This document shows, piece by piece, positions 27,582 to 32,552 of a stretch of 64,000 bases of DNA (within the stretch, counting starts at the first letter, position 1; every line of letters begins with the position of its first letter). Origin of the DNA: Oligoflexales bacterium (GTDB lineage: Bacteria > Bdellovibrionota_B > Oligoflexia > Oligoflexales > JAPPIL01). Location of the stretch: positions 1,215,717 to 1,279,716 of the forward strand of contig OZ244057.1 in NCBI GenBank assembly GCA_965215515.1, written 5' to 3'. Both the position numbers and the translations under genes were made by a program. A model generated the notes under the pieces. That model was given only the letters and a program-made list of their open reading frames with translations, made no database searches and was not told where the DNA came from.

Positions 27582-29684
27582 TCACACCCGCAGATGGTGG
27601 CTCTTGACCCGTATCAGGCCGAATTCGTTGAAGTTGACCAGTACATCGATGGTGTCAAACGATTCTTCAATGCTGGTAATGCGTCCCATGCCATAGGTGG
27701 GGTGGACGATCTGCATGCCGACAGCGAAACGGCGCGGCTGGGCACGGTTAGTCGCAGGAGGTCGCCGCGCAGTTGCTTGCTCGTTTTGCAAACAGGGTGC
27801 GGGGATGTCAGCCATGAAACGTGAGGGCGAATTGCTACTCCAGGTTTGGAAAACACGGCGACTGGCGGCACAAGTAAGGGTGAGTTTTTGGCGTGCACGA
27901 GTCATACCCACGTAGAGCAAACGGCGTTCTTCTTCCAATTCAGCACGGGAAGCGATGCTGTTGCGGTGCGGGATAAGCCCTTCCTCCACCCCTGCGATGT
28001 AGACACGGTTGAACTCCAAGCCTTTTGCAGCATGCAAGGTCATCAGCGAAACGCTAGCATCGTTCTGACATAACTCATCACCGACGAGTGCCACCGACTG
28101 TAACCAGCTGTCGAGCGTGGCTTCAGGGTAACGGCTGGCAAAATCACGCAATGCCGTATCCAGCTCCATAACGTTTTCTTTTTTTTCGGTGGCTTGGTCG
28201 CGATATTTTTTGTCAAGATATTCGAGATAAGCAACCGTGCGCAAAAAAATCGCCAAGGTCGCGGCTAGTTCGCCAGCACGCAGCGCTTTTTGTAATGCGT
28301 TGAAGGTCGTCACAAAAGGTTTCAGCTTGCCTGCCAGTTTAGGAAAGTTGTCTCGCACCAGGTTGCGTGCTTGCTGTAACAGCGATTGTTTGGCTGCCGC
28401 AGCTTGTTGTTCAATAATCTCCAACGAGCGTTGCCCGATACCAGAGCGAGGGGCATTGATTACCCGTTTGAAACTGGCAGCATCGCTTTCGTTAACAACC
28501 AACCGCAGCCAAGCGATGATGTCTTTAATTTCGATGCGATCATAAAAACGCAAGCTACCGTATATCTGGTAGTTGACGTGTCGTCGTCGCAAAGTGTCTT
28601 CTAGCAAGCGTGATTGGCTGTTGGTGCGATAAAAAATCGCGACTTCTCGCCACGGAAATTTATCCTGTTCGTTAACCAGACTATCGACGATGGTATGTGC
28701 CTCCATCTCAGCATCGGCATCGCGTTTAAATTCAATCAAACTACCCGCATCGTTAGCCGTCCAAATTTCTTTGTCCACCCGCGTTGCATTCCTGGCGATG
28801 AGTGCCCCCGCGGCTTTAATAATCGTTGCTGAACTACGGTAATTGCGGTTAAGAATAATTTTTTTGGCTTGCGGATAAACTTCTTGAAACTGCAAAATTT
28901 TGTGGGGACTTGCCCCTCGCCAACTGTAAATAGACTGATCATCATCACCGACCACGAACAAGTTGCGATGTTTGGCGGCCAGCAGTTGAATTAACTCAAA
29001 CTGACATTGGTTGATGTCTTGGTATTCATCGACAAGAATATAGCGGCAACGATTTTGTAAATTTTCCCGCACCGTTGCGTTGCGCCGTAACAAAAAGACT
29101 ACATGCAAAATTAAATCACCGAAATCAACGGCATGGCAAGAACGCAGATAGTGCTGATAGGCGAGGTAAATGTTGAAGCCACCGCTGGCAATGAGTTTAG
29201 GATAGAGGCGTGCCACCTTGTCGTTTTCGTCGGCAAAAACGCCGTTTATCTTTGCTTGTGAGATTGCCCATTGGTAGCTAGCTACTGAGTTATCGTCGTC
29301 GAGCGGAATGTGTAGGCGGTTAAGCACTGTCTTTAGTGCTGCACTGCTGTCGCGCTGATCGTAGATTAAAAAATTACTAGGCAAACCCAGTTCACCAGCA
29401 AATTCTCGCAACCAACGCGCACAGGCCGAGTGGAAGGTCGCTACCACACTCTTGCGCGCCTGTGGCGACAGACGCTCGACCCGCTGCCGCATTTCGTCGG
29501 CCGCCCGATTGGTGAAAGTCACCGCCAGGATATGCCGCGGAGCAACACCTTGGTCGATCAAGGCAGCAATACGTGCCGTGATGATGCGGGTCTTGCCACT
29601 GCCAGCCCCTGCGAAGACGACCGCCTGTCCGTCGCGATGCTGCACCGCCTCCTGTTGCGTTTCGTTAAGGGTCAAGACGCTCAT
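27582..29684 (-). CDS. ATP-dependent DNA helicase, UvrD/PcrA/Rep family
   Basis: 700 aa. Motif I AGAGSGKTRIITARIA, motif II VDEYQDIN, and the other SF1A helicase blocks (TFH, LNRNYRS, VGMTRAR). Confidence 0.9.
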   Translation of the reverse strand: MSVLTLNETQQEAVQHRDGQAVVFAGAGSGKTRIITARIAALIDQGVAPRHILAVTFTNRAADEMRQRVERLSPQARKSVVATFHSACARWLREFAGELGLPSNFLIYDQRDSSAALKTVLNRLHIPLDDDNSVASYQWAISQAKINGVFADENDKVARLYPKLIASGGFNIYLAYQHYLRSCHAVDFGDLILHVVFLLRRNATVRENLQNRCRYILVDEYQDINQCQFELIQLLAAKHRNLFVVGDDDQSIYSWRGASPHKILQFQEVYPQAKKIILNRNYRSSATIIKAAGALIARNATRVDKEIWTANDAGSLIEFKRDADAEMEAHTIVDSLVNEQDKFPWREVAIFYRTNSQSRLLEDTLRRRHVNYQIYGSLRFYDRIEIKDIIAWLRLVVNESDAASFKRVINAPRSGIGQRSLEIIEQQAAAAKQSLLQQARNLVRDNFPKLAGKLKPFVTTFNALQKALRAGELAATLAIFLRTVAYLEYLDKKYRDQATEKKENVMELDTALRDFASRYPEATLDSWLQSVALVGDELCQNDASVSLMTLHAAKGLEFNRVYIAGVEEGLIPHRNSIASRAELEEERRLLYVGMTRARQKLTLTCAASRRVFQTWSSNSPSRFMADIPAPCLQNEQATARRPPATNRAQPRRFAVGMQIVHPTYGMGRITSIEESFDTIDVLVNFNEFGLIRVKSHHLRV

Positions 29685-29690
29685 TATAGT

Positions 29691-30166
29691 GCCGTCAGAT
29701 ACTCTGCGCCAAGGTAAGTTATCTGCCAGTGCCGTCAGATACCCTGCGCCAAGGTAAGTTATCTGCCAGTGCCGTCAGATACCCTGCGCCAAGGTAAGTT
29801 ATCTGCCAGTGCCGTCAGATACCCTGCGCCAAGGTAAGTTATCTGCCAGTGCCGTCAGATACCCTGCGCCAAGGTAAGTTATCTGCCAGTGCCGTCAGAT
29901 ACCCTGCGCCAAGGTAAGTTATCTGCCAGTGCCGTCAGATACCCTGCGCCAAGGTAAGTTATCTGCCAGTGCCGTCAGATACCCTGCGCCAAGGTAAGTT
30001 ATCTGCCAGTGCCGTCAGATACCCTGCGCCAAGGTAAGTTATCTGCCAGTGCCGTCAGATACCCTGCGCCAAGGTAAGTTATCTGCCAGTGCCGTCAGAT
30101 ACCCTGCGCCAAGGTAAGTTATCTGCCAGTGCCGTCAGATACCCTGCGCCAAGGTAAGTTATCTGC
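29691..30166. repeat. 40-bp direct tandem repeat, about 12 near-perfect copies (tgccgtcagataccctgcgccaaggtaagttatctgccag)
   Basis: Exact head-to-tail units from 6 bp upstream of the helicase start codon to 30 bp beyond the FtsW/RodA stop. Only the first unit differs (tactctg vs taccctg). There are no spacers, so this is not a CRISPR. Confidence 0.9.
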
Positions 30167-30196
30167 CTACGGAAGTCAACCTGTCCCCGTTTCAGG

Positions 30197-31354
30197 TCAA
30201 TGCACCCACCGTCTGCCGCGGCGAGAGACGGAGGTGCGGTCGATTGCGACGAGCAAACCGACCGCGCAACTGTTAGCGAGCAGAGACGAACCACCGCAGG
30301 AAAAAAACGGCAGTGGTGTTCCGACCACAGGAAACAGCCCTGCGATCATTGCCGTATTGACGGCGAATTCCACAAAAATTTTCGCGGTCAAGCCAACTGC
30401 TAACAGGGTGGCGAAAGAATCTTTGTTGGCACGGGCGGCGATCTGCAGACCGAGCCAGGCAAAGGCTGTGAACAGCAGCAAGATCAGTACTGTGCCGACA
30501 AAACCGTGTTCTTCAGCCAGCACTGCCAGAGCAAAGTCCGTGTGGCGAGCGGGAAGAAAGTGCAGTTGGCTCTGTGAACCTTGTAAGAAACCTTTGCCGA
30601 GCAAACCACCGCTGCCGATCGCGATCAACGCTTGTAAAGAGTTGTAGCCCGAACCGTGTGGATCGAGAGCAGGGTTGAGCAGATTGAGGACACGCAGTTT
30701 CTGGTAGTCGTGCAGCAAAAACTGCCAAGCTACCCAACTGCTCAGCAGGGCGATAACGACAGCAAGCAACACACTCTTTCGACGCAGCGGCACACAACAC
30801 AACTGTGCACAGACGATGGCAAGGCAGATACCTGCCGTGCCGAGATCAGGTTGACGAAAGATTAGCAAACACAATAGCGCAACGCAAGCCAGCAACGGCC
30901 ACAGGTCACGCAACCGCCAGCCTGCGACACGACGATGGAAAGCAAAAAACCTGGCAGTCAGCAGAATCAAAGCCAGCTTGGCAAACTCGGCAGGCTGAAA
31001 ACGCAACACAGCAAGCGACAGCCAGCGCTGCGAACCACCCGCTTCATGGCCGATCGCCAACACCAACACGTGCAACAACAGAATCAGGGCATAGAGAGGG
31101 TAAGCCCAGGCTTGCAGGTGCTGTAGGGGCACAAACAAAGCACACAACCCGAAAGCTACACCCGCGGGGATGAGATACACCAGCTGTGTTTGCCAGAGGT
31201 TAGCGTTCGAGCCTGCACTGTAGAGATTGGTAATCCCCAGCACTAGCAACAGCGTAAAAAGTGTCGCCAGCTGCAACCCACGTGCGGCCAGCGGCGGAGC
31301 GCTACGCATACCTTCTCTCCCATATAAGGCAAGAGATACAAGATGATAGCGCAC
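30197..31354 (-). CDS. FtsW/RodA/SpoVE family peptidoglycan glycosyltransferase (SEDS protein)
   Basis: 385-aa polytopic membrane protein with the conserved C-terminal SEDS blocks (PLPFFSCGGSSLLANSCAVGLLVAI; DFALAVLAEEHGFVG). Confidence 0.85.
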   Translation of the reverse strand: MRYHLVSLALYGREGMRSAPPLAARGLQLATLFTLLLVLGITNLYSAGSNANLWQTQLVYLIPAGVAFGLCALFVPLQHLQAWAYPLYALILLLHVLVLAIGHEAGGSQRWLSLAVLRFQPAEFAKLALILLTARFFAFHRRVAGWRLRDLWPLLACVALLCLLIFRQPDLGTAGICLAIVCAQLCCVPLRRKSVLLAVVIALLSSWVAWQFLLHDYQKLRVLNLLNPALDPHGSGYNSLQALIAIGSGGLLGKGFLQGSQSQLHFLPARHTDFALAVLAEEHGFVGTVLILLLFTAFAWLGLQIAARANKDSFATLLAVGLTAKIFVEFAVNTAMIAGLFPVVGTPLPFFSCGGSSLLANSCAVGLLVAIDRTSVSRRGRRWVH

Positions 31355-31406
31355 TAATCGCGAGCTGGCAACAAGTACCTCTCTGGCATATTTTTAAAAT
31401 AATTGC

Positions 31407-32516
31407 TTGAAAAAATTTAAAGAACATGTATCATGTGGCGTGCTTTTTTGTTTTTTGTGTGGATATAGTATAGGGAAGGTTAACATGTTAGTATCAGGGG
31501 TTAGTTTCAAGAATCTGGTGGCGGTGGCGGTGTTGGCGCTGTCGTTGTCTTGCGGCACGCAGATGACGGGTGAGGTGCAGCGGGTAAATGATCCCGACAG
31601 AGCGCGCAAGGCGGTTTCGCTGAGTGAAGATGTCTGGCGTTGGGCGAGAGGCAACAAAGGCAAGGTGGTGATCGCGGCGGGAATTGTCGCGGTGCCGATT
31701 TTGTTTAATGTGTCGAAGAATTTTTTCGTATTCTCTAATCCGATGGTTGAGGCTGGTTATGTCGGTTATGTGTATAAAGAGCCTGTGAAGCTTTCTCACA
31801 CTGAGGGTGGTTTCTATCGTACCATCGAGGGGCCAGCGCGACTAGGTTTGCGTTTTTCGCAAAACGAGTACAAGGTCATTCCGATCGACATTCGTTATCG
31901 CACTTATTCCGAGCGCTTTAAAATTCTCGCTGCTGACCAGTTGAATATTGAGTTTACCGCTCATGTACGTTTGCGGACGAAGCGTGATGAGGGTTCGATT
32001 CGTGAGGTGGTTGAAGTTTACGGTGGTTCAAATTGGTATCAGACTAACATCAAAGAACCTGTGCGCACGCAGGTACGCAAAGCGGTACAGGTTTACAGAA
32101 GCCCTGAGGTTAAGGAGCATCGTGCCACCATTGAAAGTAATGTGTTGCAAGAACTGCATGCTTTTCTTGCCGACAAGCCGTTTGAGGTGGATACTATTTC
32201 GGTCGGTAACATCGATTACCCCGATGTAGTTGAGAATGCAGTCGAGCGCAAGCTTGCCGCACAACAGAAGCTCGAAGAGCAGCGTATTCAAAAAGCCATC
32301 GCCAAGGAGAAGGCTGACATCAAGGTAATTCAGGCCGAAGGACAGGCAAAGGCACAAGAGATTGTCAGGCAGACTCTCACAGCGCTGTATATCAAGCACC
32401 AAGCGGTGAAAGCGATGGAAGAGTTGGCCAAGTCTCCTAACAAAGTCTTCATTTATATTCCTGTTGAAGATATGGCGATTCCGCTGGTCAAGACCGTCGA
32501 AGAAGGTTCGCAGTAA
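31407..32516 (+). CDS. SPFH/band-7 (stomatin-prohibitin-HflK/C-like) membrane-anchored protein
   Basis: N-terminal signal/lipobox (LALSLSCG; probable start ATG 31485). Band-7 core followed by a long coiled-coil (AAQQKLEEQRIQKAIAKEKADIKVIQAEGQAKAQ). Confidence 0.7.
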   Translation: MKKFKEHVSCGVLFCFLCGYSIGKVNMLVSGVSFKNLVAVAVLALSLSCGTQMTGEVQRVNDPDRARKAVSLSEDVWRWARGNKGKVVIAAGIVAVPILFNVSKNFFVFSNPMVEAGYVGYVYKEPVKLSHTEGGFYRTIEGPARLGLRFSQNEYKVIPIDIRYRTYSERFKILAADQLNIEFTAHVRLRTKRDEGSIREVVEVYGGSNWYQTNIKEPVRTQVRKAVQVYRSPEVKEHRATIESNVLQELHAFLADKPFEVDTISVGNIDYPDVVENAVERKLAAQQKLEEQRIQKAIAKEKADIKVIQAEGQAKAQEIVRQTLTALYIKHQAVKAMEELAKSPNKVFIYIPVEDMAIPLVKTVEEGSQ

Positions 32517-32552
32517 TAATTTTTTCCTGAGTTCCGCAGGTAAATTAGCATT

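What the first reader, a model, noticed from the sequence alone, without database searches (positions are those of the whole stretch)
29685..30196. Twelve tandem copies of a 40-bp unit filling the gap between FtsW/RodA and the UvrD/PcrA helicase start
tgccgtcagataccctgcgccaaggtaagttatctgccag is repeated head-to-tail about 12 times, with only copy 1 variant. The array starts 6 bp upstream of the helicase initiation codon, so it constitutes that gene's entire promoter and 5' UTR. 40 is not divisible by 3 and there are no spacers, so it is neither coding nor CRISPR. Together with the 110-bp array 3.4 kb away, it brackets the dehydrogenase-helicase pair. Copy-number change would move any upstream promoter relative to the repair helicase, a plausible mutator or expression rheostat. 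It is also a ready-made strain-typing marker.
Basis: seen in the sequence. Interest (0 to 1): 0.65.

Follow-up and report, generated by a model that had tools for sequence, protein, structure and literature searches.

The report
Twelvefold tandem repeat of helicase promoter
A 40-base piece of the promoter and leader of a DNA-repair helicase gene (pcrA/uvrD type) has been copied head-to-tail twelve times in this one uncultured Oligoflexales-like bacterium, a real but ordinary kind of bacterial "promoter tandem repeat" whose effect on the gene is unmeasured.

Summary
TRF finds 12.0 head-to-tail copies of a 40-bp unit at 29688-30167: 11 are identical and one differs by a single base. None is expected by chance.

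The array lies between rodA (30197-31354, minus) and a PcrA/UvrD-type helicase (27582-29684, minus).

In eleven relatives whose PcrA is 78-85% identical, the same upstream region is single-copy. It carries a conserved promoter-like footprint: TTGACTT, 17 nt, TA.C.T, a leader, and a Shine-Dalgarno-like (SD-like) GGAAT.

The unit is a slice of that footprint. It holds the end of the spacer, the -10 hexamer, the likely start site and about 25 nt of leader. The conserved -35 hexamer lies outside the array and occurs once (30174-30179).

Each unit junction recreates a weaker promoter-like pair, CTGACG-16 nt-TACCTT.

The unit next to pcrA keeps the ancestral A. The other eleven share a derived G, so the array has a multi-step history.

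The unit was not found elsewhere in the window, in 172 fetched loci, in GTDB species representatives or in viral contigs.

It is best read as a lineage-specific promoter tandem repeat, a known kind (Mycobacterium tuberculosis dop, lpdA and cysG). A rheostat function is plausible but untested, and polymorphism cannot be tested with one genome.

The "bracketing" with the 110-bp array is not supported.

The parts
29688..30167 (-). Tandem array of 12.0 copies of a 40-bp unit. On the minus strand, the strand the genes are read on, the unit is GGCAGATAACTTACCTTGGCGCAGGGTATCTGACGGCACT. Each unit holds the end of the promoter spacer, the -10-like TACCTT, the likely start site and about 25 nt of pcrA leader.
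   Evidence: TRF; pattern search with shuffles; 11 perfect units counted; homology of the unit to the single-copy pcrA upstream region of relatives.
29688..29727 (-). The unit next to pcrA, the only variant. It reads GCGCAGAG where the other 11 read GCGCAGGG (base 29703). The A is the state in every relative in the alignment that shares the footprint (L168, which lacks it, cannot be scored at this column), so it is ancestral.
   Evidence: alignment column after CGCAG.
30174..30179 (-). Conserved -35-like hexamer TTGACT. It occurs once, outside the array, 17 nt upstream of the first TACCTT (30156..30151).
   Evidence: TTGACTT is invariant in 8 of the 9 relative loci in the alignment, and also in L169, including loci where the upstream gene is not rodA. 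Coordinates read.
29711..29716 (-). The last -10-like hexamer TACCTT, the one nearest pcrA. It is preceded at 16 nt by the cryptic -35-like CTGACG of the previous unit. The same pair recurs at every unit junction, for example CTGACG at 30138..30133 with TACCTT at 30116..30111.
   Evidence: Read. This is inference; the consensus scanner does not call these sites because the -10 matches only 3 of 6.
29683..29712 (-). Promoter-like match TTGGCG-18 nt-TATAAT (10 of 12). Its -10 overlaps the pcrA ATG. It is probably not usable for pcrA, because a transcript from it would begin after the ATG.
   Evidence: The relatives have an SD-like GGAAT or GAGAAT at this place instead.
27582..29684 (-). PcrA/UvrD-type SF1 DNA helicase, 700 aa and intact. 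ATG at 29684.
   Evidence: NCBIfam TIGR01073 pcrA, E 4.5e-188, 627 bits, below the 911-bit equivalog cut-off. Full-length relatives at 78-85% identity.
30197..31354 (-). rodA (SEDS peptidoglycan polymerase), the gene upstream of the array. Its stop codon is at 30199..30197.
   Evidence: TIGR02210, 343.8 bits against a cut-off of 336.7. The rodA-then-pcrA order is kept in L001, L002, L164-L167 and L169.
25846..26285 (-). A separate 110-bp x 4 array, not part of this feature. Each unit is 50 nt of mnmG upstream sequence plus the ATG and the first 20 codons (MKHEFNIIVIGAGHAGCEAA).
   Evidence: mnmG assigned by TIGR00136 at 805 bits.

Best explanation
The array is a lineage-specific promoter tandem repeat. 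A 40-bp slice of the helicase gene's own core promoter and leader (-10 hexamer, start-site region, about 25 nt of 5' UTR) was duplicated and then expanded to 12 copies. The likely mechanisms are slipped-strand mispairing or unequal RecA-dependent exchange.

Shown:
- The unit is homologous to the single-copy pcrA upstream region of relatives.
- The ancestral state is single-copy.
- The conserved -35 lies outside the array and occurs once.
- The unit next to the gene carries the ancestral base.

Inferred:
- The gene now has one full promoter 440 bp further upstream, giving a leader of about 465 nt made of repeats.
- It also has up to eleven weaker junction promoters (CTGACG-16 nt-TACCTT). The last of these restores a short leader of about 20 nt.
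- Copy number therefore sets the number of start sites and the length of the leader, and so the amount of pcrA mRNA.
- The 40-bp spacing is shorter than an RNA polymerase footprint, so any gain would be less than proportional.
- The near-perfect identity of the units makes the locus prone to gaining and losing copies.
- The expansion may compensate for a weakened proximal promoter and for the 8-nt loss of the SD-like motif seen only in this lineage.
For: - The array is real and not a chance pattern.
- The pcrA upstream regions of L001, L002, L161-L167 and L169 share TTGACTT-17 nt-TA.C.T-CGCAGA...CTG.CA...GGAAT-start. This holds even where the upstream gene differs, in L161, L162 and L163. L168 lacks the footprint.
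- blastn maps window 27589-29722 and 30144-32525 onto overlapping positions 9955-9973 of L001. About 420 bp of the array therefore has no counterpart there.
- No relative has a tandem repeat in the conserved promoter region immediately upstream of pcrA.
- The A-versus-G variant implies at least duplication, then mutation, then expansion.
- Two adjacent units fold as single-stranded DNA into a hairpin of -14.1 kcal/mol (z -3.5), which would favour slippage.
- A precedent exists in M. tuberculosis. Units of 54-58 bp lie 12-29 bp upstream of lpdA and cysG, with a 57-bp unit at dop, and copy number varies within and between strains (PMC12817950).
Against: - No transcription start site, expression data or second genome of this species is available, so neither promoter activity nor copy-number variation is shown.
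- The -10 (TACCTT) matches the consensus at only 3 of 6 positions. The scanner calls neither the conserved promoter nor the junction promoters. The promoter assignment rests on conservation alone.
- The strict pattern TTGAC-N17-19-TAnnnT is not enriched upstream of other genes in the window: 5 hits, of which only this one is intergenic.
- Internal units lack the conserved -35.
- A neutral minisatellite would look the same in sequence.
Confidence: 0.6

Rival explanations
1. It is a neutral or slightly harmful minisatellite. The same amplification of promoter and leader DNA occurred, but as a by-product of slippage in a lineage prone to such arrays. pcrA expression would be essentially unchanged and nothing would be selected.
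For: - Minisatellites are frequent in the roughly 190 kb of this clade examined. Examples are 110 bp x 4 in the window, 35 bp x 4.7 at 100% identity in L163, and 45 bp x 3.3 and 82 bp x 2.5 in L002.
- They affect different kinds of sequence: a gene's 5' end and a terminator-like hairpin.
- No relative keeps an array at pcrA.
- Near-identical copies mean the array is recent and has had no time to be tested by selection.
Against: An array that moves the only conserved -35 hexamer 440 bp away and adds eleven -10 and leader copies is unlikely to leave transcription untouched. The same short region has also lost the SD-like motif, so changes are concentrated on expression signals. Neither point is proof.
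Confidence: 0.28
2. It is an assembly artefact. The true genome would have one or a few copies, and the assembler inflated the array.
For: The source is a metagenome-type assembly: a single 2.18-Mb contig and a single record. No reads are available to check. Copy number in perfect repeats is the hardest thing to assemble.
Against: - The array has internal structure that matches evolutionary history: the ancestral A is in the gene-proximal unit only, and the derived G is in the other 11.
- It has clean borders and exactly 12.0 copies.
- A 480-bp array is far shorter than long reads. Contigs of megabase size and the ctgNNN naming of sister assemblies suggest long-read data, though that reading of the names is my inference.
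- Assemblers usually collapse repeats rather than expand them, as argued in PMC12817950.
Confidence: 0.06
3. It is an array of protein-binding sites or a structured RNA leader. The junction palindrome TATCTG-N10-CAGATA would act as a repeated operator that titrates a regulator. Alternatively, the repeat-built 5' UTR would fold and control pcrA translation.
For: - Each junction forms CTG-N10-CAG flanked by TAT and ATA.
- The 541-nt leader folds better than shuffled sequence, at -204.5 kcal/mol (z -5.1).
- uvrD and pcrA belong to SOS regulons in model bacteria (my own knowledge).
Against: - The palindrome exists only at the junctions, so it is a product of the duplication. It is absent from the conserved single-copy region of relatives.
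- There is no Rfam match at E <= 1.
- Any repeat with partial self-complementarity folds better than its shuffles.
- No candidate regulator was identified.
Confidence: 0.05
4. It belongs to a dispersed intergenic repeat family (REP, MIRU or similar) that happens to sit here.
For: Relatives do contain dispersed short repeats and repeat-rich intergenic regions, for example L002 16680-17560 and L163. The rest of the source genome could not be searched.
Against: A 24-mer from the unit has 0 matches in the other 63.5 kb of the window, in GTDB species representatives, in viral contigs and in the 168 loci held at the time. The unit is clearly homologous to the local pcrA promoter of relatives.
Confidence: 0.02

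Closest known systems
Promoter tandem repeats (PTRs) of Mycobacterium tuberculosis upstream of dop, lpdA-glpD2 and cysG-efpA (Modlin et al. 2025, PMC12817950)
   Same: Both are minisatellite-size units (54-58 bp there, 40 bp here) repeated head-to-tail within a few to about 30 bp of the start codon. Both are made of the gene's own promoter sequence. Both are proposed to change promoter output with copy number and to be hypermutable by slippage or recombination.
   Different: - In M. tuberculosis the units cover mapped promoters or start sites, and copy-number variation was shown within cultures and across 93 isolates. Here there is no start-site map and only one genome.
- The unit here lacks the conserved -35 and has only a cryptic one.
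- There are 12 copies here, against a few there.
- The gene is a repair helicase in an uncultured Oligoflexales-like bacterium.
MIRU-VNTR loci of mycobacteria, such as the senX3-regX3 intercistronic repeats (my own knowledge: Supply et al. 1997, 2000)
   Same: Tandem units of 40-100 bp lying between two genes that point the same way. They are useful as typing markers.
   Different: MIRUs are a dispersed family present at about 40 loci, and many carry small ORFs that overlap the flanking genes. This unit is locus-specific, derives from the local promoter, and has stops in all frames within 3 units.
Simple-sequence contingency loci in promoters, such as the spacer repeats of Haemophilus and Neisseria (Moxon et al. 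2006, cited in PMC12817950)
   Same: A repeat tract in a promoter whose length changes by slippage and alters transcription.
   Different: Those tracts have units of 1-7 bp that change the spacing between -35 and -10, giving on, off or graded states. Here whole -10 and leader modules are multiplied, and the spacing inside each module is constant.
TR34 and TR46 tandem repeats in the Aspergillus fumigatus cyp51A promoter (my own knowledge)
   Same: Tandem duplication of a short promoter segment (34 or 46 bp) that raises expression of the downstream gene.
   Different: That is a eukaryotic enhancer-type element with 2-3 copies, selected by azole exposure.
CRISPR arrays
   Same: Repeats of comparable length (about 24-48 bp) in a non-coding stretch.
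   Different: There are no spacers at all here; the units abut. No link to cas genes was sought or seen, and the unit is promoter DNA.

Membership tests
Bacterial minisatellite / VNTR locus | Head-to-tail copies of a unit of about 10-100 bp with high identity | tested here: met
   Period 40, 12.0 copies, 99% matches, 0 indels. 11 units are identical.
Bacterial minisatellite / VNTR locus | Copy number varies among strains of the species | not testable with these tools
   Only one contig carries this PcrA. Exact look-ups return nothing. The nearest relatives are other species at 85% identity or less, and all are single-copy.
Promoter tandem repeat (PTR, as in M. tuberculosis) | The array lies immediately upstream of the start codon and is made of the gene's promoter region | tested here: met
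   The array ends 3 nt before the ATG. The unit aligns to the conserved -10, start-site and leader block of the relatives. The promoter is assigned from conservation, not from a mapped start site.
Promoter tandem repeat (PTR, as in M. tuberculosis) | Each unit carries a complete, active promoter | tested here: inconclusive
   Each unit has the -10-like TACCTT. The conserved -35 TTGACT is outside the array. Junctions give CTGACG (4 of 6) with a 16-nt spacer. The scanner does not call them.
Promoter tandem repeat (PTR, as in M. tuberculosis) | Expression of the downstream gene changes with copy number | not testable with these tools
   This needs reporter constructs or transcript data.
Dispersed intergenic repeat family (REP / MIRU / ERIC type) | The same unit is present at many loci of the genome or of related genomes | tested here: not met
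   0 further hits in the window at up to 3 mismatches. 0 in GTDB representatives, 0 in viral contigs and 0 in the 168 loci held at that point. The rest of the source genome was not available.
CRISPR array | Repeats separated by unique spacers of similar length | tested here: not met
   The units are contiguous, with successive copies starting exactly 40 bp apart.
Known structured RNA (Rfam family) in the leader | A match to a covariance model | tested here: not met
   No match at E <= 1 over 29300-30600 on either strand.

The most novel reading that the evidence does not exclude
The array could be a self-referential contingency switch. PcrA/UvrD-type helicases strip RecA from DNA and suppress tandem-repeat rearrangement. 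In E. coli a uvrD mutant shows 3.3-fold more RecA-dependent repeat contraction (PMC3477136; Bierne et al. 1997, cited there). A hypermutable repeat that sets the level of this very helicase would couple repeat instability to helicase dosage. Low-PcrA variants would rearrange repeats faster, both genome-wide and at their own promoter, giving a reversible hyper-recombination state. The nearby 110-bp array at mnmG and the density of minisatellites in this clade would then be symptoms of that state.
Probability: 0.05. Interest if true: 0.7.

Novelty: new member of a known kind. Interest (0 to 1): 0.3.

Why it matters
If the copy number really tunes pcrA, this would be a promoter tandem repeat controlling a genome-maintenance helicase, outside pathogens and in a barely studied phylum. 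It would support the recent view, drawn from long-read M. tuberculosis genomes, that minisatellite-type promoter repeats are a general and overlooked source of heritable expression variation.

In practical terms it is a clean example of how such an array is born. The single-copy ancestor, the exact slice that was amplified, and the order of events can all be read from the sequence.

It is also a caution for annotation. The conserved -35 hexamer now lies 440 bp further from the gene it serves, about 490 bp upstream of the start codon.

As it stands, the array is one locus in one metagenome-derived genome, with no functional data.

Tried and rejected
- **Retrieving the source genome.** Exact-protein look-ups for PcrA, RodA and P0001 returned nothing. 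Genome-wide dispersal and read-level copy number could not be checked.
- **Searching for the unit elsewhere.** A 24-mer from the unit had no hits in GTDB species representatives or in viral contigs.
- **Metagenome scan with PcrA.** Nothing closer than 41% identity was found, so there are no same-species contigs.
- **CRISPR, coding repeat and known RNA.** All rejected.
- **Replication-origin or DnaA-box array, considered because mnmG/gidA is nearby.** The unit's TTATCTGCC matches TTATCCACA at only 6 of 9 positions and lacks the CACA core. Rejected by eye.
- **LexA/SOS operator.** The CTG-N10-CAG palindrome exists only at unit junctions and is absent from the conserved ancestral region. It is treated as a by-product.
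- **Sigma-54 promoter.** CTGGCAG-N5-TTACC has the -24 GG but AC in place of the -12 GC. Rejected by eye.
- **The scanner's TTGGCG-18-TATAAT site.** Its -10 overlaps the ATG, so a transcript from it would lack the start codon. The next in-frame GTG would delete the conserved LNxxQxxAV motif. It is judged unusable for pcrA.
- **Flanking repeats that would make the dehydrogenase-helicase segment a cassette.** Only chance-level inverted repeats were found.
- **Genome-wide support for the TTGAC-N17-TAnnnT promoter form.** Too few hits to say anything.
- **Microhomology at the borders of the 40-bp array.** None was found, and there are exactly 12.0 copies.

Full report
**Observation**

Tandem Repeats Finder reports an array at 29688-30167 with period 40, 12.0 copies, 99% matches and no indels. 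Dinucleotide-preserving shuffles give no hits. In the register GGCAGATAACTTACCTTGGCGCAGGGTATCTGACGGCACT (minus strand), 11 units are identical. The twelfth, next to the helicase gene, differs at one base. No ORF of 50 aa or more lies inside the array and there are no spacers.

**Context**

All relevant genes are on the minus strand.
- rodA is at 30197-31354 (TIGR02210, above its cut-off).
- A 700-aa SF1 helicase is at 27582-29684. It scores best against PcrA, then UvrD and Rep, and is below every equivalog cut-off.
- Beyond these lie a Trp/Glu-dehydrogenase-family gene on the + strand (26498-27550), then mnmG (about 24085-25905) and eno.

The gap from rodA to pcrA is 512 nt. It consists of 29 unique nt, then the 480-nt array, then 3 nt, then the ATG.

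**Relatives**

The closest genomes in the GTDB representative set are two "Oligoflexales bacterium" MAG chromosomes, L001 (PcrA 84% identical) and L002 (82%). The protein database holds the identical protein on a single 2.18-Mb contig, which is the source and is not retrievable. It also holds relatives at 78-85%, whose loci I fetched as L161-L169. A JGI metagenome scan found nothing closer than 41%. No second genome of the species exists in these collections.

**What the unit is**

The 95-160 nt upstream of pcrA were aligned or inspected across the relatives. They share a block that begins at an invariant TTGACTT. Next come 17 nt, a hexamer TA[A/G/C]C[T/C]T, then CGCAGA, CTG[G/A]CA, and an SD-like GGAAT or GAGAAT 6-10 nt before the start codon.

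The block is kept even where the upstream neighbour is not rodA. L161 and L162 have an extra 321-324-aa gene there. L163 has a PTA_PTB-domain gene (pta-like) about 1.1 kb upstream. L169 has a remnant of the extra gene's 3' end. Conservation that starts at the TTGAC is what a gene-specific sigma-70-type promoter would produce. That is my inference; no start site is mapped.

The window matches this block: TTGACT (30179..30174), 17 nt, TACCTT (30156..30151), GGCGCAG and so on. The 40-bp unit starts 6 nt after the -35 hexamer and runs to about 25 nt past the -10. The unit therefore holds the end of the spacer, the -10, the start-site region and most of the leader.

blastn shows the same thing. Window 27589-29722 and 30144-32525 both map to L001 at overlapping positions 9955-9973, so about 420 bp of array has no counterpart there. 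None of the relatives has a tandem repeat in the conserved promoter region immediately upstream of pcrA. The array is therefore a derived, lineage-specific amplification of part of the pcrA promoter and leader.

**History**

At the variant position, every relative that shares the footprint has A (CGCAG-A). The gene-proximal unit also has A, and the other eleven have G. This requires at least a duplication, then a point change in one copy, then expansion of that copy. Such a pattern is hard to get from an assembler, and it also shows that the expansion is recent.

There is no microhomology at the array borders. Two adjacent units can fold as single-stranded DNA into a hairpin spanning the junction (-14.1 kcal/mol, z -3.5), which would favour slippage.

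The window also lacks 8 nt that carry the SD-like motif in the relatives. In their place is CACTATA-ATG.

**Likely consequences (inferred)**

- The only copy of the conserved -35 is now 440 bp further from the gene. A transcript from it would carry a leader of about 465 nt made of repeats. That leader folds more stably than shuffled sequence (z -5.1), as any partly self-complementary repeat would.
- At each junction, the leader part of one unit places CTGACG (4 of 6 against TTGACA, keeping the TGAC core) 16 nt upstream of the next TACCTT. Up to eleven weaker promoter-like modules follow the first, and the last would restore a short leader of about 20 nt.
- The consensus scanner calls none of these sites, because the -10 matches only 3 of 6. 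It calls only TTGGCG-18-TATAAT (29712..29683), whose -10 overlaps the ATG and which could not serve the full-length gene.
- Units spaced 40 bp apart cannot all be occupied by RNA polymerase at once (general knowledge). Any gain in transcription would therefore be less than proportional to copy number.
- The expansion may have compensated for the weaker proximal signals. I cannot tell the direction or the size of the effect.

**Comparison with known systems**

The closest described kind is the promoter tandem repeat of M. tuberculosis. There, 54-58-bp units lie 12-29 bp upstream of lpdA and cysG, with a 57-bp unit at dop. They are built from the promoter, vary in copy number within cultures and among 93 isolates, and are proposed to scale promoter output (PMC12817950).

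The present array meets the positional and compositional criteria of that kind. The criterion "complete promoter per unit" is inconclusive. Copy-number variation and an effect on expression are not testable here.

It is not a dispersed REP or MIRU-type family as far as I could test. It is not CRISPR, and it is not a known RNA.

The 110-bp x 4 array (25846-26285) is unrelated in sequence. Each of its units is 50 nt of upstream sequence plus the ATG and the first 20 codons of mnmG.

Nothing ties the two arrays into a bracket. Only chance-level inverted repeats occur around them. Synteny with the relatives ends at the pcrA stop codon. Where a called gene follows pcrA in the relatives it is usually purF-like, and the dehydrogenase gave no tblastn hit in the ten loci searched.

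What the two arrays do share is that each multiplies the 5' end of a gene and each is near-perfect. Together with arrays in L002 and L163, this suggests a clade prone to forming minisatellites.

**Speculative reading**

UvrD suppresses RecA-dependent contraction of tandem repeats in E. coli, with a 3.3-fold increase in a uvrD mutant (PMC3477136). A mutable repeat that sets the dose of the homologous helicase could therefore feed back on repeat stability. Nothing here tests this, and I give it about 5%.

**Verdict**

The array is real. It is best explained as a recent, locus-specific promoter tandem repeat: a new member of a known kind, with modest interest and no functional evidence yet.

Noticed in passing
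window 25846-26285 (minus strand): The 110-bp x 4 array is a quadruplicated 5' end of mnmG. Each unit has 50 nt of upstream sequence, the ATG and 20 codons (MKHEFNIIVIGAGHAGCEAA, including the FAD-binding GxGxxG). Because 110 is not a multiple of 3, the three upstream copies are out of frame with the gene. The copy furthest from the gene has one change (AAAAAACCCC against AAAAAATCCC). GAAGCG occurs at the start of the unit and again 3 nt before its end.
   Followed up: partly
window 29682-29700 compared with L001, L002, L161-L167: The window's pcrA lacks 8 nt that hold the SD-like GGAAT or GAGAAT motif found in the relatives that share the footprint. In their place is CACTATAATG, a perfect TATAAT overlapping the start codon.
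   Followed up: partly
L163 3997-4161: A relative (PcrA 84% identical) has a 100%-identical 35-bp x 4.7 array. Its unit looks like an intrinsic terminator: GTCATCTGC-ttatt-GCAGATGAC followed by a T run. It sits just downstream of a PTA_PTB-domain gene (pta-like), in a 1.1-kb gene-free stretch upstream of pcrA. This is a tandemly multiplied regulatory element of a different type.
   Followed up: no
L002 16680-17560: A non-coding stretch of about 0.9 kb is packed with short arrays (45 bp x 3.3, 55 bp x 2.1, 82 bp x 2.5) built from GCTCGCT-rich motifs. The motif TTTTTGYCGCTTTCTMGC is shared with the window's 110-bp unit, and among the 168 loci searched it occurs only in L002. It may be a clade-specific short repeat motif.
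   Followed up: partly
L161 3911-4876, L162 3909-4883, L169 2845-2935: The rodA-pcrA spacer is a variable site in this clade. Two relatives carry an extra 321-324-aa gene with no Pfam match inserted between rodA and the pcrA promoter. L169 appears to keep only that gene's 3' remnant, which makes its spacer 156 nt.
   Followed up: no
window about 27550-27590: Synteny with all relatives stops at the pcrA stop codon. Most relatives continue with a purF-like gene. The window instead has a convergent Trp/Glu-dehydrogenase-family gene followed by mnmG and eno. A lineage-specific rearrangement breakpoint therefore lies between the two arrays.
   Followed up: partly
window 29688-30167 and 25846-26285: The two arrays share the 9-mer CGGCACTGG in opposite orientation. 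In the 40-bp array it spans the unit junction. It occurs only twice elsewhere in the window (20379 and 36483). This is probably chance, at roughly 2-3% for two units of these sizes by my own estimate.
   Followed up: partly
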